A stretch of 64,000 bases of DNA from an uncultured Gammaproteobacteria bacterium (GCA_964496095.1 CAZBWU010000005.1:19704-83703); one strand, 5' to 3'. Numbered from the stretch's first letter, positions 30,420-64,000 are shown. Notes: generated by a model from the sequence alone, not told the origin. Made by a program: numbers and translations.

Positions 30420-32123
30420 ATGACACTTACGATAAAAGAAAATATTTTTAAATTGTTGAAATCCGCTGGAGTGGAAGGGGAGATAGAATTGACCTCTCCG
30501 CCAAATCCAGAAATGGGTGATTTTGCTTTTGCTTGTTTTGGTGTGGCTAAATTTTGGCAGATGAATCCAGCGGAAGCGGCAAAAAAAATCAGTTCTCAGT
30601 TCGAAGTCCACAGCTCCCAGATGATTGAAAAAGTGGTTGCCCTTGGTCCTTATGTAAATTTTTATCTTAACTCTGGTAAAGTAGCGGATCTCATTATAAA
30701 AGAAATTTTAAAAAAAGGAAAAAAATATGGCATAAATAATTCCGGCAAAGGTAAGAAAGTTTTGATTGAGTATCCTTCTAATAATACTCATAAAGAATTT
30801 CATATCGGCCATTTCCGTAATGTTTGTATGGGCAATGCTTTGGTTAATCTGTACGAACAAAATGGTTATAAAGTTTATCCGGTAAATTATCTCAATGATT
30901 TTGGAAATCACGTGGCCAAGTGTTTGTGGGGTTTACAAAAATTTCATAAAGATGAAAAGCCTCCAGCCAATCAGCAAAAATGGTTGGGTGAGATTTATGC
31001 GGAAGCGAGCGCGAAACTAAAAGAAAATCCTGATTTTGCGCCAGAGGTAGCTGATGTGCAAAGACAATTAGAAAGCCATGATAAAAAATTATGGCCATTG
31101 TTTATCAAAACCAGGCAGTGGAGTATATATCAGTTTGCTAAAATTTTTAAAGATCTGGGTGTCAAACACAAAGCGGTTTTTTATGAAAAAGATCTCAAAG
31201 CCAAAGGCCAGAAAATGGTGGATGAGTTGCTCAAAAAAGGTATAGCCACAGTCGGTGAGGGTGGAGCGATTATTATTGATTTGAGTCAGTATAATTTAGA
31301 TGTGGCGTTGTTGCGAAAATCAAACGGCGCTGGTTTGTATCTGACGAGCGATTTGCCGCTCGCGACGGAGAAATTCAAAAAATGCAATGCGGATGAAAGT
31401 ATTGTTATTACCGGTATTGAGCAAAATTTATATTTTAAACAACTATATAAAATTTTGGAGTTAATGGGTTTCAAGAAAAAATTAACTCATATTGGGTATG
31501 GGCTCATAAATCTCAAAGAAGGTAAGATGGGCTCAAGGTTTGGCAATGTGATTTTGTATGAAGATTTGTATGCGGATATTTATGAAAGCCTAAAAGCCGA
31601 ATCTGTAGAGAGGCATGTTGACTGGAGTGATAAAAAAATTAGCGCCAATGCGAAAATTTTGGCTTTAGCTGCCCTGAAGTTTGATATGCAAAAACATGAG
31701 GCTAATAAAAATATTGTTTTTGATGCGAAAGAGGCGACTTCGGTTGAAGGTTTTAGCGGACCATATGTTTTGTATGTGGTCGCGCGAATAAACAGCATGC
31801 TCAGTAAAGCAAGTAGCAAATCGCAAATAGTAAAAAGCAAATTTTCGTTACTGGATAAGCCGGAAGAAAAGCGGTTGGTTTTGTGGCTGGGCAAGTATGA
31901 AGAAACTGTGGAAAAAGCTTTAGCAGAATATAATCCATCTGTAATGACTCGTTATTGTTTTGATCTGGCACAGGCGTTTAATAATTTTTATAATAATTGC
32001 AGTATTTTAAAAGCGGAAACCAAAGATTTAATGTCTGCCAGACTATCGTTGTCTGTGGCCACAAAAAATGTTTTGGAAAGCGCTTTAGGGCTTCTTACTA
32101 TTGACACGGTTGAGGAGATGTAA
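30420..32123 (+). CDS. argS: arginyl-tRNA synthetase
   Basis: HIGH-type motif FHIGHFRN, class I core, DALR anticodon-binding C-terminus. 567 aa. Confidence 0.9.
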   Translation: MTLTIKENIFKLLKSAGVEGEIELTSPPNPEMGDFAFACFGVAKFWQMNPAEAAKKISSQFEVHSSQMIEKVVALGPYVNFYLNSGKVADLIIKEILKKGKKYGINNSGKGKKVLIEYPSNNTHKEFHIGHFRNVCMGNALVNLYEQNGYKVYPVNYLNDFGNHVAKCLWGLQKFHKDEKPPANQQKWLGEIYAEASAKLKENPDFAPEVADVQRQLESHDKKLWPLFIKTRQWSIYQFAKIFKDLGVKHKAVFYEKDLKAKGQKMVDELLKKGIATVGEGGAIIIDLSQYNLDVALLRKSNGAGLYLTSDLPLATEKFKKCNADESIVITGIEQNLYFKQLYKILELMGFKKKLTHIGYGLINLKEGKMGSRFGNVILYEDLYADIYESLKAESVERHVDWSDKKISANAKILALAALKFDMQKHEANKNIVFDAKEATSVEGFSGPYVLYVVARINSMLSKASSKSQIVKSKFSLLDKPEEKRLVLWLGKYEETVEKALAEYNPSVMTRYCFDLAQAFNNFYNNCSILKAETKDLMSARLSLSVATKNVLESALGLLTIDTVEEM

Positions 32124-32220
32124 TACTTTCATATTGGCTGCATGTTTGTTCTCGCCAAATTTTGGTTGTGAGCAGTGCAAGCCACGAATATAAACAATCT
32201 CAAAGAAAAAGAGGTGTGGC

Positions 32221-33235
32221 TATGGACGCCTTGAAGATCTGGTTCTGGAATAAGGGACGGCAGTTTGGTTTGATTCTGCTGGAATTTCTCTGGAAGTTGG
32301 TTGTCCGGTTTTTTTATCAGCCGGATTTCATTTTCCTGGTCTACGGCCAGTTGCGCCACAAGCGCGCTTGCTGGTCTGAGAGAACGGAGAAGCGTATCGG
32401 TCTCTGTGGTTTGATCAGCTTCATCAGATGGAAGAAGGACGGTGTTCGGTTTCGTGGTTTGGTGATAGCTTCCACGGTGAGTATGGAAGAATTTAGCGAG
32501 CGACCCGAACTCGCTTTGAGAGTTGTTGAAGAAGTGAAAAAGCGCTTTCCTAAGGTGAAGGCAATTGCTTTGGCCGGGCAGCTTCCTGGATGGATTGCTC
32601 GTGCATCGGGACAAGCCCCAGTCACACCTTGTGTTGGTGGAAGTCTTGGAACTTGCTTTGCTGTAGGGCGGGCGGTATTTGAACTCTCTTCTTCTTTGAG
32701 GGGTGTGTCGGATCAACATGTTGTTGTGGTGGGTGGAGCTGGTCATACCGGTTCTCAGGTGGTTGAGGTCTTGTCGGTCGCAAATCGATTTAGAATCACT
32801 GCCTTTGATCGCCGTTTGTCAGAAAATGTCACAGGCAATGTTCGTCAAACCAGTGACCCTGTTTGTTTGGAGAGCGCCTCTCTAGTGGTGGTGCTTACTG
32901 CCCAAGGAGATGAAGTTAGATCTCTTGTTCCAAACATTAGGCGGGGAACGATTGTTGCTGATGACACGCACCCCATGATTGGTTCGCGCGTGCGCAAGGC
33001 GCTTTTTGACCAGGGTGCAAAGCTCGCCAAGATCACGATGACTGCAAATCCCTCCTTGAGGATGTTTCCGCGTCTTCCCGACTTCAAGTCGGATGATATT
33101 CCCGGGTGCCTTCTTGAGGCTTTGGTGGTTTCTGTGAGGGGGCGTGAAGTTCTCTCTAGCCAGTCAAGATTTGATGCGGAAGCTGAGCGTTTGGGGTTCA
33201 AGCCTAAGTTGGGGGATCACCCAACGTATTCGTAG
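32221..33235 (+). CDS. NAD(P)-binding Rossmann-fold protein of unknown function in a moderately GC-enriched segment
   Basis: AAGAGG Shine-Dalgarno before ATG 32221 (ORF track starts at TTG 32162). VVVVGGAGHTGSQVV GxGxxG dinucleotide-binding motif. Local GC is clearly above the flanks. Confidence 0.45.
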
Positions 33236-33270
33236 TTGACTTCGCGAGCTTGTTGAAAGACAGTCTCGCG

Positions 33271-36257: not shown

Positions 36258-36911
36258 ATGAAACCGCAGGGAAAGGTAAAAATAAAATGGTCGCCAGAGT
36301 TCGCATATGCAATAGGGTTAATTACATCGGATGGTAGTTTATCAAAAGACGGCAGGCATATATCATTTGTTTCAAAAGATATAGAAATGATAAAAAATTT
36401 TCAGAGAAGCTTGGATTTTTCATGTAAAGTTGGTAAAAAATCGAGCGGTTCAAATAAGAATAAAATTTACAAATTTGTTCAGATAGGCGATGTAAGTTTT
36501 TATAATTTTCTTATTTCAATAGGTTTAATGCCTAATAAAAGCAAGGTAGTAGGAAGTGTCAAAGTTCCAAAAAAATATTTTTTTCATTTTTTAAGAGGTT
36601 GTTTTGATGGAGACGGGAGTTTTTATTCTTATTATGATAAACGATGGAAGTCTAGTTTAATGTTTTATGTAAGCCTTGCCTCAGCAAGTAAAACACATAT
36701 TTTGTGGTTAAGGGCCGAAATTTTAAAGAGATTAAAAATTAAAGGGCATATAGCAAAGAGCTTGCAAAGTTCTGCTTATCAGCTAAGATATGCAAAACAA
36801 GAGTCCCTTAAATTATTGTCTAGTTTATATTTAGATGATACAGTTAGCCTGTCTAGAAAGAAGTTAAAAATACTGAAAGTTATAAAAAGTAAAAAAGCGC
36901 GGGTGGTGTAA
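36258..36911 (+). CDS. LAGLIDADG-family homing endonuclease (two-motif, single-chain type), free-standing
   Basis: Two LAGLIDADG motifs about 100 aa apart: YAIGLITSDGSL and FLRGCFDGDGSF. The last 15 nt overlap the 5' end of tRNA-Leu. Confidence 0.8.
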   Translation: MKPQGKVKIKWSPEFAYAIGLITSDGSLSKDGRHISFVSKDIEMIKNFQRSLDFSCKVGKKSSGSNKNKIYKFVQIGDVSFYNFLISIGLMPNKSKVVGSVKVPKKYFFHFLRGCFDGDGSFYSYYDKRWKSSLMFYVSLASASKTHILWLRAEILKRLKIKGHIAKSLQSSAYQLRYAKQESLKLLSSLYLDDTVSLSRKKLKILKVIKSKKARVV

Positions 36912-36979
36912 TGGTAGCCACGCAGCCTTGAGGTGGCTGTGCCCGCAAGGGCATGGAGGTTCAAGTCCTCTCCCGCGCA
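36897..36979 (+). tRNA. tRNA-Leu (anticodon GAG), class II with a long variable arm; CCA not encoded
   Basis: Acceptor stem GCGCGGG/CCCGCGC. Anticodon stem CAGCC/GGCTG with loop TTGAGGT. 15-nt variable arm. T-loop TTCAAGT. Discriminator A. Confidence 0.85.
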
Positions 36980-37073
36980 CTAGTTAAATATCGAATTGTG
37001 GTTTGATATTTTATAATTTATAGAATTTTCTAAATTTTATAAATAATCTTCAGGTTATTTTGTGAAATAATTT

Positions 37074-39047
37074 ATGAAACGAGAATATTATTCTAATTCG
37101 ATTGCTCTTTTCATAAAGTCTGATGTAGATGAGATACTTGGTAAATTGACACGAAATAGCGACTTTGATTTAGGGCAAAATCAGCGAGACGCATGGGTAG
37201 AAGAAATTAATATTTTGCAAAAAGTTTTAGCTTCTTATTCTGGCTCAATTTGCTTTGAATATTCTATTCCCAGAATGGGAAAGAGAATTGACACAGTTTT
37301 AATTATTGGGCCAGCTATTTTTATTCTTGAATTTAAGGTTGGAGATAAAGAATTTTCTTCCAGTGCGCTAGATCAGGTTTGGGATTATGCTCTGGATTTA
37401 AAAAATTTCCACAGCTCAAGTCATAATCATTTTATAGTACCTGTTCTTATTGCAACAAATGCAAAAAATATTTCTCCTGTTATTTCGTTAACTCCAAAGA
37501 GCGACAAGGTTCTTTTTCCTATAAAATCAAACCTGGAAACATTAAAGATTGTTTTAGATAATTCCTTGGCTTTATTAGACGGGAATAGTATTGATGTTGC
37601 AGAATGGGAAAAAGGAAGATACTGTCCTACCCCGACTATTGTTGAAGCGGCTATGGCTTTATATAGGGGGCATTCTGTTGAAAATATTTCGCGAAATGAT
37701 GCTGGGGCAATTAATTTGACCCAAACATCTGAGGTTGTGTCAGAAATAATCAGGTCTTCACGAGATAAATCACAAAAATCAATTTGCTTTGTTACTGGTG
37801 TGCCTGGTGCTGGAAAGACGTTAGTTGGGTTAAATATCGCAAATAAACATATTGATAAAGAAAATGATTTGTACAGTGTCTTTCTTTCTGGAAACGGACC
37901 GCTTGTAGCAATTCTGCGAGAAGCATTGACTCGTGATAGGGTGTTCCATGAGAAAGAAAAAGGAAATAAAATTACCAAAGGTGACGCCATGCGAAATGTT
38001 AAATTATTTATTCAAAATGTTCATAATTTTCGGGATGATTGTTTGAAGGATGAAAAACCACCAATTGAACATGTTGCTCTTTTTGATGAAGCACAGCGAG
38101 CTTGGAATTTAGAACAAACAGCTAATTTCATGCAGAGGAAAAAAGGTAAGCCAGATTTTAATCAATCTGAGCCAGAGTTTCTTATTTCTTGTCTTGATCG
38201 TCATAAGGACTGGGCAGTTGTTGTTTGTTTAGTTGGTGGAGGTCAAGAAATAAATACGGGGGAGGCGGGAATTAGCGAATGGATTAAATGTTTAAATAGT
38301 TCATTTCCAGATTGGAATGTTTATGTGTCTTCTAGGTTAACTGATAGTGAATATGGAGCAGGAAAAATTCTAGACCAAATCAAGGCTCATAAAAATGTAT
38401 TTATGAAAGATGAACTACATTTGTCTGTTTCGATGCGTTCATTTCGTGCTGAGCATGTTTCGTTGCTTATAAAACAAGTTCTTGATATAGATTTAGCAGA
38501 AGCGCAAAAAACATTAACACAGGTAAAATTACAATATCCAATTGTAATTACTCGTGATATTGTAAAAGCAAAGGAATGGTTAAAAAAACAAGCTCGTGGT
38601 TCCGAACGTTATGGAATGGTTGTTTCTTCACAGGCAGAGAGATTAAAACCTCATGCAGTGTTTGTAAAGTCAGCCATGGACCCTATTCATTGGTTTCTTG
38701 ATGGTAAGGAAGATGTTCGCTCGTCGTATTACCTTGAAGATGTAGCAACAGAATTTGATATTCAAGGGTTGGAATTAGATTGGTCATGTGTAGTTTGGGA
38801 TGCTGATTTTAGGTATACAGTGACTGGTTGGGACTGCAGATCATTTGTTGGTAGTAAGTGGAATTATATTAAAAAATTTGAGAGGCAAATGTATTTAAAA
38901 AATGCATATCGTGTTTTACTCACTCGAGCCAGGCAAGGAATGGTTATTGTTATTCCACCTGGTGATCCTTTAGACCCCACTCGTAATCCAGATTTTTATA
39001 ATCCTATTTTCAATTACCTTAAAGATGTCGGCTTCGAAGAGATTTAG
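37074..39047 (+). CDS. PD-(D/E)xK nuclease plus SF1-helicase-like ATPase fusion (DUF2075-like)
   Basis: N-terminal nuclease-type D...ExK (IDTVLI ... ILEFK). Walker A GVPGAGKT. Walker B / DExQ (LFDEAQRAW). SF1 motif VI ([11 protein letters not shown]). Confidence 0.65.
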
Positions 39048-39128
39048 AATATTGACCAAGACGGTCTCTTCTTTCAATTTCCCTCAAAAAATGCTAAAAT
39101 TCCTTTAGTATTTTTTTATTATATTTCT

Positions 39129-39371
39129 ATGCGCTATTTTATCGGTATTGTCCTAGTCTTAATCGGTGTGGCTTTAGTTCTCAAAACTGAATGGTTTCTT
39201 CAAAACTTTGGTAGTAATGCTTGGGCAGAAGAAAAATTTGGCACTGCGGGCGGTTCGCGTTTAATGTACAAGCTTATTGGTATTGCCTTTATTTTTTTTG
39301 GGTTTCTCTCTATAACCAATATGATTAATGGTTTCTTGATGGGAACGTTGGGTAAAATTTTTATTAGATAG
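39129..39371 (+). CDS. small two-TM membrane protein
   Basis: 80 aa with two hydrophobic helices. Confidence 0.35.
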   Translation: MRYFIGIVLVLIGVALVLKTEWFLQNFGSNAWAEEKFGTAGGSRLMYKLIGIAFIFFGFLSITNMINGFLMGTLGKIFIR

Positions 39372-39376
39372 TTTCT

Positions 39377-39925
39377 ATGTCTCACTCTGGTACGGCGCTT
39401 ATCGATCCATACAAAATATTTGAAAGAATTTCATTGTCAGCCGGACAACGGGTGGCTGATTTGGGTTGCGGTCGCACCGGTCATTTTGTTTTTCCAGCAG
39501 TTAAAGTCGTGGGTGATAAGGGTGTGGTCTATGCGGTTGATGTAGTCAAAAATATTTTGGAGAGCATAAAAAGCATGGCGCGAAGCGAAGGTTTTGATAA
39601 TGTGCAGACAGTTTGGTCTGATATTGAGATGCCCGGTAAAACGCCTATTCCTGAGGGGTCACTTGACGCTTGTTTTTATATTAATGTATTATTCCAGCTG
39701 AAAAATAAAGATAGCGCTTTGCAAGAGGCGGTGCGGATGCTCAAAAAAGGTGGGTATCTAGTAGCGGTTGATTGGGCAAGGAAACTAGGGGCGCTAGGTC
39801 CGTCAGAAAACCTAATGCTTAAACCAGACGAGCTGATGCGTTTGGCAAGTAGTCAAGGTTTAAAATTTATCGACAAGATTTTACCAGGCGATTATCATTA
39901 TTCATTAATTTTTGAGAAAATTTAA
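39377..39925 (+). CDS. class I SAM-dependent methyltransferase (small-molecule type)
   Basis: Motif I VADLGCGRTGHF. Motif post-II LKKGGYLV. Confidence 0.65.
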   Translation: MSHSGTALIDPYKIFERISLSAGQRVADLGCGRTGHFVFPAVKVVGDKGVVYAVDVVKNILESIKSMARSEGFDNVQTVWSDIEMPGKTPIPEGSLDACFYINVLFQLKNKDSALQEAVRMLKKGGYLVAVDWARKLGALGPSENLMLKPDELMRLASSQGLKFIDKILPGDYHYSLIFEKI

Positions 39926-40343
39926 TTATTCTACTATGAGTTTCGCGAATCTCTTCCACCTAGATTATTGGTTCAGCCAGCCGTTTATCGCCAGAGGCAA
40001 TTCTTTGAAATTAATTGTTGGCGCTTTTTTACTTTTTATCGTAGTAGGTTTGGTTTGTAGAATTCTTTCTCAGTATAAAGAAGAAAAATACAAAAAAATT
40101 ATTTTGAAAAGATTTGGAAATTTGGGAATGACTGTGGGTTTTTTGGGGATGGTCTGGATGTTTTTCCGCCAGGAAGGTGTTATGTATTTATCATATCGTG
40201 TTTGGTTGTTACCCGTAGCTGTCTATGCAGTCTGGTCTCTATATAAAACTTACAAATACATGACTTCTCGAGTTCCTCAAATAAAAGAGGAAGAAGACAG
40301 ACGTGCTAGAATAGAAAAATATTTACCTCATCAAAAAAAATAA
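39912..40343 (+). CDS. hypothetical membrane protein
   Basis: Three predicted TM helices. No motifs. Confidence 0.35.
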   Translation: MRKFNYSTMSFANLFHLDYWFSQPFIARGNSLKLIVGAFLLFIVVGLVCRILSQYKEEKYKKIILKRFGNLGMTVGFLGMVWMFFRQEGVMYLSYRVWLLPVAVYAVWSLYKTYKYMTSRVPQIKEEEDRRARIEKYLPHQKK

Positions 40344-40344
40344 T

Positions 40345-40701
40345 GTGACTCGCCATAATAAAAATTTAGGCGATTGGGGAGAAGAACAAGCCTGTAATTT
40401 TTTAAAACGACACGAATTTAAAATTGTTGAACGGAATTTTCATACAACCATGGGTGAAATTGATATCATCGCTGTCAAAGGCGATGATTATTATTTTATA
40501 GAGGTAAAGACAAGAAAAGATAGAGAGTTGGCCAACGACGATTCTATTACTTATTTCAAGAAATTAAAGCTTCAAAAAACGGTCAGAGCGTATTGTTATG
40601 CGAGAAGTATAAAGGACAAATCCATTATTTTGGCTGGGTTAATTGTAAAAGTAAATGAACTTGAGAAAAAGGCTAGTTTTCGGTTTTGTGTTATCTATTG
40701 A
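40345..40701 (+). CDS. YraN/UPF0102-family endonuclease-like protein
   Basis: GDWGEE...EIDIIA...FIEVKTRK, the restriction-endonuclease-like fold signature of UPF0102. Confidence 0.7.
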   Translation: MTRHNKNLGDWGEEQACNFLKRHEFKIVERNFHTTMGEIDIIAVKGDDYYFIEVKTRKDRELANDDSITYFKKLKLQKTVRAYCYARSIKDKSIILAGLIVKVNELEKKASFRFCVIY

Positions 40702-41846
40702 CCCTGTTAAATCCGACTAAGGTCGGTCTGCCGCAAGGCAGGAAATAATCAAGTTAAGCTGGAACCACTTTCTGCATAACTTCGTTAGGGGTTTTATACC
40801 CCAAACACTTCCGTGGTCTGTTATTCAATTTTTCCTGTATCTCATAAATATCTCTATCAGTCAGTTTGTCCAAGTCTGTGCTTCTAGGTAAGTAGTGTCG
40901 TATTAACTTATTAGCATTCTCAACCCCTCCCTTTTGCCACGAGGCAAAAGGATCACAGAAGTATGTTGTAATACCATACTCTTTTTGTATCTCCATATGT
41001 TTGGCACCTTCGGTGCCATTATCAAAGGTAATGGTTTTAAACAATTCACCTGGCAATGATTCGATACTTCTGATTAAAGCATACTTAGTCTCTTCAGCGG
41101 TCTTGTTTATCACCTTATGTATTCGTATTAGTTTAGACTTTCTCTCTGATTGGACTGACAAGATGTTCTTTTGTTTAGAGAAGATAACACTGTCACTTTC
41201 CCAATCGCCATACCTTATTCTAGCACCAACGACCTCTGGTCGTTGGTGAATGGATTTTCGCTCAGGTATGCGTAATTTACCGCTTTTTCTAGTATGCTTT
41301 TTCTGTCTTTTTGTCTTACCTTGCCTTAGGTATTTGTATAACCCTTCATACCGACCGTCCTTGTTATATATGTAATGATAGATACTTTCATGGCTGATGG
41401 TTTGTTTATGACCACTCTCCTTCAAATTACCGGCAATCACATTTGTTTATGACCACTCTCCTTCAACTTACCGGCAATTACATCTGGACTCCATTCTTTT
41501 ACCAACCCCTCAATCACTGTTTGTTTTAACTGTGGGTATTTATCTAACTTACCTCTACGTTGTTTGTGTTGTCTTCTTTCAAACATCCACTGTGCTGTAT
41601 CGGCTCGGTATCTCTTTCTATCACCACTACCATTTTTAGTGATTTCTTTGCTCAACGCACCGTGAGTTCTCCTCATTATTTTGGCTATATCTCGAAGGCT
41701 CATCTTAGTTCTAAGCCAATATTCCAGCATCTGTCTCTCGTAAAACCTAAAGTCATTTGACATATGTACCACCTTTATGGATAAAGCCGTATTTTACCAT
41801 TAGGGTGGTTCTAGTAGTTTAGATTATTGCCAGAATTTAACAGGGT
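40702..41846 (-). mobile_element. IS30-family insertion sequence (about 1.15 kb) with 12-bp terminal inverted repeats ACCCTGTTAAAT / ATTTAACAGGGT
   Basis: IRs at 40702-40713 and 41835-41846 bracket an IS30-type transposase (N-terminal HTH, C-terminal DDE with the ...WQKGGVENANKLIR... block). Confidence 0.75.
40754..41772 (-). pseudogene. IS30-family transposase split into two ORFs (41437-41772 and 40754-41440) by a 41-bp tandem duplication
   Basis: Imperfect direct duplication TTGTTTATGACCACTCTCCTTCAA(A/C)TTACCGGCAAT(C/T)ACAT at 41402-41442 and 41443-41483. The peptide IAGKLKESGHKQ is encoded at the end of the upstream ORF and again at the start of the downstream ORF. Confidence 0.75.
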
Positions 41847-41981: not shown

Positions 41982-42584
41982 ATGACACATCCTTCCAAAG
42001 AAAGAACATTTGTCATCATCAAACCTGACGGCGTTCAACGTGGTCTAGTTGGTGAAATTTTGAAACGCATTGAGCGAGTAGGTTTGAAGGTTAGCGCTCT
42101 CAAAATGGTAGTGCCTACTGAAGAACAATGCTGGACACACTATAACAAAGATGAAGCCTGGTTTTTGAAAAAAGGCGAGCGCACTATTAATGATCGTACC
42201 GCTGCCGGGTTAGTAGTAGACAAAGAACCAATAGAATATGGTAAAGACATTGTCCGTGCTTTGGTAAAATTTATGACTTCTGGACCGGTAGTAGCAATGG
42301 TTTTATCTGGCAATCAAGCCGTAGGAATCATTCAAAAATTAGTTGGTGGCACTGAGCCTCTTACTTCTGATGTTGGTACTATTCGCGGTGATTTTACTTT
42401 GGATTCATACGCTCTCTCCGGTCAAGATGAAAGAGCTGTTAGAAACCTGATCCACTCTTCTGATAAGCCAGAAGAAGCGGAAAGAGAAATAAAAATTTGG
42501 TTCAAACCGGAAGAAATTATCGGCTATCGCCAGTTGAATGAAGAAATTCTCTACGATGTAAATTTGGATGGAATCTTAGAATAA
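41982..42584 (+). CDS. ndk: nucleoside diphosphate kinase (long form with insertions)
   Basis: ERTFVIIKPDGVQRGLVGEIL N-terminus. NLIHSSD active-site His motif. Confidence 0.8.
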   Translation: MTHPSKERTFVIIKPDGVQRGLVGEILKRIERVGLKVSALKMVVPTEEQCWTHYNKDEAWFLKKGERTINDRTAAGLVVDKEPIEYGKDIVRALVKFMTSGPVVAMVLSGNQAVGIIQKLVGGTEPLTSDVGTIRGDFTLDSYALSGQDERAVRNLIHSSDKPEEAEREIKIWFKPEEIIGYRQLNEEILYDVNLDGILE

Positions 42585-62196: not shown

Positions 62197-62583
62197 GTAA
62201 AAGCTTAAAAAACTAATAAAACTCCCGCAAAAAAATTTCATTAAAAATTAATATTCTCGGGCAAGTCCGCTGTGGAAACTGTCTGCCTCATTTTGAGGGA
62301 AAGAAAAAAGAGCAATCAAGATTTGATTTCTCTTTTTTCTTTCTAACCTGTCATTAGGTAAGGTCAGGTAATAGATTGAAAAAAGTATTTCGTTCCGCTA
62401 CGGTGGAAAACGAAAAAGTACATTGACAACACAAATGTGACAAAGACCACAAAAAAAGTCTATCCGAAAAAACTCGGGTTATTCCGAGTCTAAATAATAA
62501 ATAAATCCAAAAATGATAACTTGTTCATCAGCCCTTACAGCTTCGGCTGTGTAGGGTGAACAAAAATCAAATCTCTTTTTTTA

Positions 62584-64000
<1,417 letters not shown>

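What the first reader, a model, noticed from the sequence alone, without database searches (positions are those of the whole stretch)
37074..41846. tRNA-Leu-adjacent accessory island: nuclease-helicase fusion, methyltransferase, small membrane proteins, YraN, capped by an IS30 remnant
Directly downstream of tRNA-Leu lies a 657-aa protein combining an N-terminal PD-(D/E)xK-type motif (D...ExK), Walker A GVPGAGKT, a DEAQ box and the SF1 motif [10 protein letters not shown]. This is the architecture of DUF2075-type nuclease-helicases, which are often found in defence islands. It is followed by a 2-TM peptide, a SAM methyltransferase, a 3-TM protein and YraN, and the island ends at an IS30-family element. 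tRNA-anchored, IS-bounded islands commonly carry anti-phage or anti-plasmid functions. Which of these genes, if any, cooperate is unknown.
Basis: partly seen in the sequence, partly recalled or inferred. Interest (0 to 1): 0.65.

Follow-up and report, generated by a model that had tools for sequence, protein, structure and literature searches.

The report
Lone nuclease-helicase gene, not an island
Only the large nuclease-helicase gene next to tRNA-Leu is foreign, and it belongs to an untested candidate anti-phage family, while the methyltransferase, the membrane proteins and YraN are ordinary conserved genes and the IS30 element is a separate insertion.

Summary
The "island" is not. In 15 or more other Magasanikbacteria (CPR) species the order DAGK, tRNA-Leu(GAG), 80-aa TM protein, methyltransferase, 143-aa TM protein, YraN, NDK is conserved core synteny. 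None of them has the 657-aa gene, the IS30 or the upstream LAGLIDADG ORF.

The region is therefore a core backbone with three independent insertions.
- **A ~2.07-kb single-gene cassette (36981 to about 39068).** The 657-aa protein matches PADLOC candidate family PDC-S41 end to end (E = 3.8e-288). It has a conserved N-terminal PD-(D/E)xK nuclease (E62, D73, E86-x-K88) and a DUF2075/SLFN-type SF1B helicase, the same architecture as Nhi and Nhi-like. Homologues 75-92% identical sit alone in unrelated contexts in several phyla. Some more distant ones lie beside HNH, Mrr, NgoFVII or R-M genes. The 70 nt upstream are the decayed tail of an XRE regulator gene that precedes the closest homologues.
- **A full-length IS30 element.** Its transposase is split by a 41-nt tandem duplication.
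- **A LAGLIDADG gene abutting the 5' end of the tRNA.**

The most likely function is stand-alone nucleic-acid immunity, which is inferred and untested. It is a new member of a known candidate family, of modest interest.

The parts
36258..36911 (+). Free-standing LAGLIDADG endonuclease gene (217 aa counted from ATG 36258). This is an independent insertion that fills the 2-nt spacer between DAGK and tRNA-Leu. Its stop codon lies inside the tRNA.
   Evidence: Pfam LAGLIDADG_3, E = 6.3e-11. The junctions were defined by alignment to the empty site in L008. It is absent in all relatives. Homologues in L124 and L125-128 also end 2-22 nt before a tRNA-Leu(GAG).
36897..36980 (+). tRNA-Leu (anticodon GAG). 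It is part of the core backbone and follows DAGK in all relatives.
   Evidence: ARAGORN.
36981..39068 (+). Inserted single-gene cassette of about 2.07 kb. It is absent from the orthologous site of the closest relative L008, where the spacer between tRNA-Leu and the 80-aa gene is 72 bp. The right edge is approximate (about 39065-39075).
   Evidence: Junction alignments and synteny. There is no att-like repeat and no terminal repeats.
37001..37070 (+). Degenerate 3' tail (last ~24 codons, with two in-frame stops) of an XRE/HTH_3 regulator gene. In the closest homologues that gene lies 4 nt upstream of the nuclease-helicase gene.
   Evidence: DNA alignments to L001, L005, L118 and L119. The translated remnant FDIL*FIEFSKFYK*SSGYFVK* matches RRFDVLQLKEFAKLYKKPFDYFVK*.
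37074..39047 (+). 657-aa nuclease-helicase of PADLOC candidate family PDC-S41. Residues ~1-200 form a PD-(D/E)xK nuclease (E62, D73, E86, K88). Residues 235-628 form a DUF2075/SLFN-type SF1B helicase (Walker A 242-249, DEAQ 338-341, motif VI 613-620).
39129..39371 (+). 80-aa protein with two hydrophobic segments. It is a core backbone gene and not part of the insertion.
   Evidence: Syntenic in L008-L022 at 66-94% identity. Hydropathy. Only a sub-threshold Imm17 hit.
39377..39925 (+). Class-I SAM-dependent methyltransferase of the small-molecule UbiE/ArsM-like type. Core backbone gene.
   Evidence: Pfam Methyltransf_31/11/25. NCBIfam hits are all far below cut-offs. Syntenic at 60-96% identity in 15 or more species.
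39912..40343 (+). 143-aa hydrophobic protein (a public gene call starts at 39936, giving 135 aa). Core backbone gene.
40345..40701 (+). YraN/UPF0102 small PD-(D/E)xK protein. Core backbone gene.
   Evidence: Pfam UPF0102, E = 2e-18. NCBIfam YraN models. Syntenic in relatives.
40707..41840 (-). IS30-family insertion sequence, single copy in the window, inserted in the loop of the terminator hairpin downstream of YraN. Its transposase is split into 111-aa and 228-aa ORFs.
   Evidence: NCBIfam transpos_IS30, 221.5 bits against a cut-off of 80. Empty-site comparison with L008 and flanking 12-nt inverted repeat. Single copy.
41401..41482 (-). 41-nt tandem duplication (two copies, 95% identical) that frameshifts the IS30 transposase.
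   Evidence: the repeat finder family D1. Removing one copy gives a single long transposase ORF (332-codon stop-free stretch).
41982..42584 (+). Nucleoside diphosphate kinase. It is the right-hand continuation of the conserved backbone.
   Evidence: Pfam NDK. Synteny.

Best explanation
The region is a conserved Magasanikbacteria backbone: DAGK, tRNA-Leu(GAG), 80-aa TM protein, methyltransferase, 143-aa TM protein, YraN, NDK. Three unrelated insertions have landed in it.
1. A LAGLIDADG endonuclease gene at the 5' edge of the tRNA.
2. A ~2.07-kb cassette directly 3' of the tRNA. It holds one gene and the decayed tail of its former XRE regulator.
3. An IS30 element with a frameshifted transposase, inside the YraN terminator.

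Only the cassette gene is a candidate defence function. Its product is a one-polypeptide nuclease-helicase of PADLOC family PDC-S41, with the same domain plan as Nhi and Nhi-like.

**Proposed mechanism (inferred by analogy with Nhi and from the conserved catalytic residues).** The SF1B (DUF2075/Schlafen-type) motor uses ATP to load on and translocate along single-stranded or branched intermediates of invading DNA. The N-terminal PD-(D/E)xK domain nicks or degrades that DNA, which blocks accumulation of the phage genome. In ancestral cassettes an XRE repressor probably controlled expression. Here that gene is lost, so expression must come from read-through or from a promoter in the AT-rich remnant.

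**Shown:** the anatomy, conservation of the catalytic residues, the folds, the accessory and horizontally transferred distribution, and the defence-gene neighbours of some relatives.

**Inferred:** anti-phage activity, the substrate, and the regulation.
For: - **Backbone versus insertions.** tblastn and tRNA mapping on 22 relatives' loci and junction alignments to the empty site in L008.
- **Family.** PDC-S41 matches the full length, E = 3.8e-288. The same is true for family members of 29-92% identity. Pfam gives PF09848.
- **Catalytic residues.** E62, D73, E86, K88, Q101, the Walker A residues, D338, E339, Q341, R613, R618 and R620 are invariant in 55 sequences.
- **Mobility.** Homologues of 75-92% identity are solitary genes in unrelated contexts, including Nitrospirae (accD, gene, folC) and several CPR lineages.
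- **XRE remnant.**
- **Literature.** The Nhi architecture and activities come from 10.1101/776245. Nhi-like comes from 10.1101/2022.05.11.491447.
Against: - No member of PDC-S41 has a published phage-challenge result in the searchable library.
- PDC families are only "guilt-by-embedding" candidates (PMC12881386). About half of those tested in that paper gave no protection.
- Sequence similarity to the PADLOC Nhi model is limited to the P-loop (E = 1e-5, about 50 residues).
- In this window the gene has no defence neighbours at all.
- Most relatives' neighbours are ordinary genes, and I have no background rate for the 10/80 HNH figure.
- The lost regulator and the lack of a promoter hit leave open that the gene is poorly expressed.
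- The mechanism of insertion is unknown: no integrase, no att repeat, no terminal repeats.
Confidence: 0.68

Rival explanations
1. The genes from the nuclease-helicase to YraN form one tRNA-anchored, IS-bounded accessory defence island, and some of its members cooperate, for example the methyltransferase as a modification partner and YraN as a second nuclease.
For: The genes are adjacent, on the same strand and tightly packed. YraN gives weak NERD and HEC-02B hits, and the methyltransferase gives a weak mad2 hit in PADLOC.
Against: - The block from the 80-aa protein to YraN is present in the same order, without the nuclease-helicase or the IS30, in 15 or more species.
- None of the 12 or more other contexts of close nuclease-helicase homologues contains these genes.
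- The methyltransferase is of the small-molecule class and far below every curated cut-off.
- The PADLOC hits cover only generic domains.
Confidence: 0.04
2. The cassette is the last remnant of a decayed prophage or integrative element. On this view the nuclease-helicase served the element itself, in replication, recombination or superinfection exclusion, and not the host.
For: - XRE and LexA-like (CI/Cro-style) regulators flank the closest homologues.
- The gene lies beside a tRNA gene.
- One IMG/VR contig and one GenBank "Bacteriophage sp." contig carry homologues of 49-51% identity.
- The family occurs on Persicobacter and Bacillus plasmids.
Against: - No phage structural, integrase or replication genes lie next to any homologue examined.
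- Only 1 locus was found in 2.9 million viral contigs and 1 record in 50,697 phage records.
- There is no duplicated tRNA end.
Confidence: 0.13
3. The gene is a silent or decaying relic. It would have been acquired with its regulator and would now be unexpressed after loss of the XRE gene and its promoter.
For: The XRE gene is reduced to a 70-nt tail with stop codons. No sigma-70-like promoter was called upstream. The neighbouring IS30 is itself inactivated.
Against: - The 1974-nt ORF is intact and keeps every family-invariant residue.
- The same truncated-XRE arrangement occurs in L119 in front of an intact gene.
- The remnant contains a perfect TATAAT at 37012-37017 (read from the sequence).
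- Read-through from the tRNA is possible.
Confidence: 0.1
4. The 657-aa protein is a housekeeping DNA repair or recombination helicase-nuclease of the RecD, AddA or Dna2 kind.
For: Foldseek matches RecD and Upf1. The combination of a PD-(D/E)xK nuclease with an SF1 helicase also occurs in AddAB and Dna2 (established knowledge).
Against: No NCBIfam family matches. The gene is absent from this site in every relative that covers the site. Its distribution is patchy, with 75-92% identity across phyla. It matches a PADLOC candidate-defence model over its full length.
Confidence: 0.05

Closest known systems
PADLOC candidate family PDC-S41 (model PDLC05014)
   Same: End-to-end HMM match (1-657 against 1-653/657, E = 3.8e-288, 955 bits). 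Relatives down to 29% identity hit the same model. It is a single-gene system.
   Different: PDC-S41 is only a bioinformatic candidate. I found no experimental test or mechanism in the literature. This copy lies among core genes and not inside a defence locus.
Nhi (SERP2475, Staphylococcus epidermidis; Bari et al., 10.1101/776245) and Nhi-like (Millman et al., 10.1101/2022.05.11.491447)
   Different: Similarity to the PADLOC Nhi model is confined to about 50 residues around the P-loop (E = 1e-5). It is therefore a separate family. The nuclease and helicase activities, the role of phage SSB (Nhi) and the escape through loss of a phage DNA methylase (Nhi-like, 10.1101/2022.08.27.505566) have not been tested for this family.
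Schlafen group III helicase domain (SLFN11, SLFN14, SLFN5; Pfam PF09848)
   Same: The helicase part belongs to the same Pfam family (E = 2e-84). SLFN11 (7zel) is the best Foldseek match.
   Different: The N-terminal domain here is a PD-(D/E)xK nuclease and not the Schlafen/AlbA_2 tRNA nuclease. Identity to SLFN11 is 13%.
Other single-polypeptide nuclease-helicase defences (Hna, Upx, DdmD)
   Different: Those use SF2 motors, some with the opposite domain order (Hna and DdmD carry the nuclease at the C-terminus). There is no sequence-level relationship.
tRNA-anchored genomic islands
   Same: Accessory DNA lies directly 3' of a tRNA gene. The same spacer holds different cargo in 7 of 16 related species.
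   Different: There is no integrase and no direct repeat of the tRNA 3' end. The cargo is a single gene. The cargo in relatives is not defence-related.

Membership tests
PADLOC PDC-S41 | Full-length match to the family HMM PDLC05014 | tested here: met
   E = 3.8e-288, 955.3 bits, residues 1-657 against profile 1-653/657.
PADLOC PDC-S41 | Recurrent embedding in or next to known defence loci, the basis on which PDC families were defined | tested here: inconclusive
PADLOC PDC-S41 | Protection against phage when expressed | not testable with these tools
   No paper in the library mentions PDC-S41.
Nhi / Nhi-like nuclease-helicase immunity | N-terminal PD-(D/E)xK nuclease domain with conserved catalytic residues | tested here: met
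Nhi / Nhi-like nuclease-helicase immunity | DUF2075 (PF09848) SF1 helicase with intact Walker A, Walker B and motif VI | tested here: met
   PF09848, E = 2e-84. GxPGxGKT, DEAQ and R613/R618/R620 are invariant. Structural matches are SF1B helicases.
Nhi / Nhi-like nuclease-helicase immunity | Sequence homology to Nhi (PADLOC model PDLC02372) | tested here: not met
   Only residues 219-269 match, at E = 1.1e-5. The same holds for seven other family members.
Nhi / Nhi-like nuclease-helicase immunity | Nuclease and helicase activities required for blocking phage DNA accumulation | not testable with these tools
   Known for SERP2475 only (10.1101/776245).
Integrase-mediated tRNA-anchored genomic island | Tyrosine or serine integrase at one end | tested here: not met
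   No such ORF lies between 36200 and 42600. The only recombinase is the IS30 DDE transposase, and it is a separate insertion.
Integrase-mediated tRNA-anchored genomic island | Direct repeat of the tRNA 3' end (attL/attR) bounding the island | tested here: not met
   The 22-nt tRNA 3' end occurs once in the 64 kb even with 3 mismatches allowed. No flanking repeats were found.
Integrase-mediated tRNA-anchored genomic island | Whole segment variably present among relatives | tested here: not met
   Only 36981 to about 39068 and 40707-41840 are variable. 39129-40701 is conserved in 15 or more species.
IS30 family insertion sequence | DDE transposase matching NF033563 | tested here: met
   221.5 bits against a cut-off of 80 for the C-terminal ORF. 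The N-terminal ORF matches profile positions 3-68.
IS30 family insertion sequence | Single intact transposase ORF | tested here: not met
   A 41-nt tandem duplication causes a frameshift. Removing one copy restores one long transposase reading frame (332-codon stop-free stretch).
IS30 family insertion sequence | Terminal inverted repeats and a short target duplication | tested here: inconclusive
   A 12-nt perfect inverted repeat lies at 40701-40712 and 41835-41846. Six of those nucleotides are the host terminator stem seen in L008, which leaves TTAAAT/ATTTAA as the possible element ends.
Housekeeping SF1 helicases (RecD, PcrA/UvrD) | Match to curated equivalog models and universal presence in the clade | tested here: not met
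   NCBIfam gives 0 families. The gene is absent at this site in all relatives.

The most novel reading that the evidence does not exclude
Two linked possibilities are not excluded by the evidence.

1. **A sweeping single-gene immunity cassette.** PDC-S41 could be an unusually constrained, self-sufficient immunity cassette: many members are exactly 657 aa, and identity is 75-92% across CPR, Nitrospirae and other phyla. It would be spreading through uncultivated groundwater and sediment bacteria without any visible mobility gene. The recurrent left breakpoint inside the XRE tail (window and L119, within about 10 nt of each other) might mark its minimal transferable or expressible unit.

2. **A homing-endonuclease-driven hotspot.** The tRNA-Leu(GAG) locus may be a recombination hotspot because a large CPR family of free-standing LAGLIDADG endonucleases homes to the 5' edge of this tRNA gene. 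Repair of the resulting breaks could promote capture of foreign genes next to the tRNA.
Probability: 0.15. Interest if true: 0.6.

Novelty: new member of a known kind. Interest (0 to 1): 0.3.

Why it matters
- **It removes a false lead.** The methyltransferase, the membrane proteins and YraN are ordinary lineage-conserved genes and should not be tested as defence partners.
- **It identifies a candidate worth testing.** This is an intact member of an untested PADLOC candidate family in a CPR bacterium, a group thought to be poor in known defence systems. The family is very large: 1171 clusters at 50% identity with E ≤ 1e-30. It is also strikingly conserved, and it has the Nhi-type domain plan. 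One phage-challenge experiment on any member would annotate thousands of genes.
- **The side observation could matter separately.** If the LAGLIDADG gene family really sits 5' of tRNA-Leu(GAG) in different CPR classes, it would be a rare case of a free-standing bacterial homing endonuclease that targets a tRNA gene.

Tried and rejected
- **att sites and terminal repeats around the cassette.** I searched for the tRNA 3' end with up to 3 mismatches and for direct and inverted repeats. Nothing turned up.
- **A shared 3' flank among cassettes.** Homology stops at the stop codon.
- **XRE as a general partner.** An XRE-like gene lies upstream in only 1 of 74 more distant loci. XRE is specific to the closest subclade.
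- **Phage carriage.** The single-protein scan of IMG/VR found nothing. The profile scan found one locus and INPHARED gave one record. Both look like bacterial defence islands.
- **Sequence search against PDB.** The full protein gave only a P-loop hit to zeta toxin. The N-terminal profile gave a non-significant hit to 3dnx (E = 1.5) across the E...D...ExK motif.
- **Rfam.** There is no RNA family in the region. Rfam found only the 16S rRNA at 62577-64000.
- **Composition as evidence of foreign origin.** There is no GC deviation.
- **Promoter scan.** No site was called upstream of the gene, and the number of hits was no higher than in shuffled sequence.
- **Cys-rich hotspot cargo of L013 and L017 as relatives of the high-GC ORF at 32162-33235.** No similarity.
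- **LAGLIDADG relatives in viral contigs.** They are only 27-33% identical and have no adjacent tRNA.

Full report
**1. What is in the sequence**

- tRNA-Leu(GAG) lies at 36897-36980.
- A 657-aa ORF lies at 37074-39047.
- An 80-aa protein with two hydrophobic segments lies at 39129-39371.
- A 182-aa class-I SAM methyltransferase lies at 39377-39925.
- A 143-aa hydrophobic protein lies at 39912-40343.
- YraN/UPF0102 lies at 40345-40701.
- Two minus-strand ORFs at 40754-41440 and 41437-41772 together match the IS30 transposase model. The C-terminal ORF scores 221.5 bits against a cut-off of 80.

Pfam places residues 235-628 of the large protein in PF09848 (DUF2075 / Schlafen group 3 helicase, E = 2e-84). 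NCBIfam has no model for it, so it is not a curated housekeeping helicase. The window is a low-GC CPR genome. Relatives are named Magasanikbacteria, and a 16S rRNA gene starts at 62577. GC content across the region is no different from the flanks.

**2. The "island" is a conserved backbone with three separate insertions**

I searched one genome per species with the methyltransferase and obtained 22 loci. Mapping all window proteins and the tRNA onto them showed one conserved order in 15 or more species:

histidine kinase, bactofilin-like protein, DAGK, tRNA-Leu(GAG), 80-aa protein, methyltransferase, 143-aa protein, YraN, NDK, (GpsA), PBP.

Amino-acid identities range from 45% to 96%. None of these loci has the 657-aa gene, the IS30 or the LAGLIDADG ORF.

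In the closest relative (L008, 92-97% protein identity) the tRNA is followed after 72 bp by the 80-aa gene. Aligning the junctions places the foreign segment between 36981 and about 39068. Beyond that point the promoter region of the 80-aa gene resumes.

The IS30 is a separate event. In L008 the YraN gene is followed by a hairpin, CCCCG-loop-CGGGG. In the window the element (40707-41840) sits in that loop. Its transposase is split by a 41-nt tandem duplication (41401-41482). Deleting one copy restores one long transposase reading frame (332-codon stop-free stretch). It is the only copy in the window.

A third insertion is a LAGLIDADG gene at 36258-36911. It fills the 2-nt gap between the DAGK stop codon and the tRNA.

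**3. Is the tRNA flank a hotspot?**

Yes, but not a defence hotspot. In 7 of 16 relatives the spacer between tRNA-Leu and the 80-aa gene holds 0.7-4.9 kb of differing cargo:
- a GT2 glycosyltransferase, a PMT-like protein and a carbamoyltransferase;
- Cys-rich proteins with hydrophobic N-termini;
- small charged proteins;
- a PP2C phosphatase;
- pyrD with a neighbouring ORF of no Pfam family.

The window has no integrase, no second copy of the tRNA 3' end and no terminal repeats around the insert.

**4. The cassette and its history**

Homologues of the 657-aa protein are numerous and remarkably conserved. The 120 best hits are 74-100% identical, and most are exactly 657 aa. An exhaustive search of representatives clustered at 50% identity found 1171 clusters with E ≤ 1e-30.

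I examined twelve contexts of homologues that are 75-92% identical.
- The gene is always solitary and lies among unrelated genes. In a Nitrospirae genome it sits between accD and folC-lptD.
- None of these contexts is at a tRNA-Leu.
- None contains the window's methyltransferase or YraN block.

In the closest subclade (L001-L005, L118) a 73-81-aa XRE/HTH_3 gene ends 4 nt before the start codon. A LexA-like gene often converges from downstream.

Nucleotide similarity between the window and these cassettes starts 72 nt upstream of the ATG and ends at the stop codon. Window 37001-37070 is therefore the decayed tail of the XRE gene. It reads FDIL\*FIEFSKFYK\*SSGYFVK\*, against RRFDVLQLKEFAKLYKKPFDYFVK\* in the intact genes.

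In L119 the same tail, broken within about 10 nt of the window's breakpoint, is fused to an unrelated N-terminus. XRE is not a general partner: only 1 of 74 more distant loci has one.

**5. What the protein is**

PADLOC's candidate family PDC-S41 matches it end to end (E = 3.8e-288). It also matches every relative I tested, from 29% to 92% identity. The Nhi and AbiO models touch only the P-loop.

In a 55-sequence alignment (35-91% identity) the following are invariant:
- in the N-terminal domain, W41, E62, D73, E86, K88, Q101 and Y105;
- in the helicase, Walker A (G242, P244, G245, G247, K248, T249), DEAQ (338-341) and R613, R618, R620.

AlphaFold2 gave a confident model (pLDDT 88.8, pTM 0.84). 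Foldseek against the PDB ranked SLFN11, RecD, SLFN14, Upf1 and nsp13 first, all SF1B-type motors.

**6. Defence association**

PDC families were defined by being embedded in known defence loci and are unvalidated as a class (PMC12881386). I found no paper that mentions PDC-S41.

In 80 metagenomic loci of relatives with 53-84% identity, the only recurrent nearest neighbour is a ~306-aa HNH_2 endonuclease, present in 10 loci. Occasional C5-methylase plus HpaII, PIN and PDC-S07 genes also occur.

This supports, but does not prove, a defence role for the family. I could not compute a background rate.

**7. Mechanism**

The closest characterised analogue is Nhi of S. epidermidis. It is an N-terminal PD-(D/E)xK nuclease fused to a DUF2075 SF1 helicase, it needs both activities, and it blocks phage DNA accumulation (10.1101/776245). 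"Nhi-like" shares that plan without sequence identity (10.1101/2022.05.11.491447). Phages escape Nhi-like by losing a DNA methylase (10.1101/2022.08.27.505566).

By analogy I propose ATP-driven loading and translocation on intermediates of foreign DNA, coupled to PD-(D/E)xK cleavage. The HNH and Mrr-type neighbours in relatives hint that modified DNA may be relevant. All of this is inference.

**8. Verdict**

The gene is a new member of a known but untested candidate family. Interest is modest.

**9. Noted in passing**

The LAGLIDADG family is large in CPR (3669 hits). In the only other contexts I could fetch, from Minisyncoccia and Kaiserbacteria, its members also end 2-22 nt before a tRNA-Leu(GAG), although the upstream gene there is rplS. 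This suggests a free-standing homing endonuclease that targets the 5' edge of this tRNA gene. Only two independent contexts were seen, because the context look-ups were exhausted.

Noticed in passing
window 36258-36911 (plus L124 2501-3269, L125 2501-3272): A free-standing LAGLIDADG endonuclease gene fills the DAGK|tRNA-Leu(GAG) spacer, and its stop codon lies inside the tRNA. It is absent from 16 related species. Homologues of 60-63% identity in Minisyncoccia and Kaiserbacteria also end 2-22 nt before a tRNA-Leu(GAG), behind a different upstream gene (rplS). The family has about 3,700 members, mostly in CPR. It may be a tRNA-targeted homing endonuclease.
   Followed up: partly
window 36897-36980 versus L008 777-858: The tRNA-Leu is only 87% identical to that of the closest relative, although the flanking proteins are 92-97% identical. 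There are compensatory changes in the anticodon stem, and the variable arm is 2 nt longer (CCCGCAAGGG), as in L013, L124 and L125. Co-conversion during homing or cassette insertion is possible but unproven.
   Followed up: partly
window 41401-41482: A 41-nt tandem duplication (two copies, 2 mismatches) inside the IS30 transposase gene causes the frameshift. The same structure is present in an independent Logan assembly of run SRR10036081 (L030).
   Followed up: yes
window 37001-37070 and L119 5806-5997: The XRE tail is retained with nearly the same breakpoint in two unrelated genomic contexts. In L119 it is fused in frame to an unrelated 39-aa N-terminus. The window remnant has acquired a perfect TATAAT at 37012-37017, where intact XRE genes read TTTTACAG.
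   Followed up: partly
window 32000-33250: A segment with GC 0.51 sits in a genome of about 37% GC. It contains a 357-aa ORF (32162-33235) with no Pfam family and no similarity to the Cys-rich hotspot proteins of L013 and L017.
   Followed up: partly
L009 4826-9684; L013 7727-9733; L017 8076-9665; L018 7748-9757; L026 892-3162; L015 and L016: The spacer between tRNA-Leu and the 80-aa gene is a variable spot in Magasanikbacteria. The cargo differs between species. Some of it has much higher GC (0.46-0.50), including ~430-aa Cys-rich proteins with hydrophobic N-termini and no Pfam family.
   Followed up: partly
L121 3648-5972: A 774-aa protein that fuses a DUF2075 helicase to a C-terminal S24 (LexA-like) peptidase lies directly upstream of a PDC-S41 homologue of 90% identity.
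   Followed up: no
L042, L055, L063, L068, L081, L083 and others (about 300-aa ORF next to the PDC-S41 gene): A recurrent ~306-aa protein is the nearest neighbour of PDC-S41 genes in 10 of 80 metagenomic loci. It has a C-terminal HNH_2 domain (PADLOC HNH model PDLC04132, best E = 3.8e-50) and an unassigned N-terminal domain. It may be a functional partner in a subclade.
   Followed up: partly
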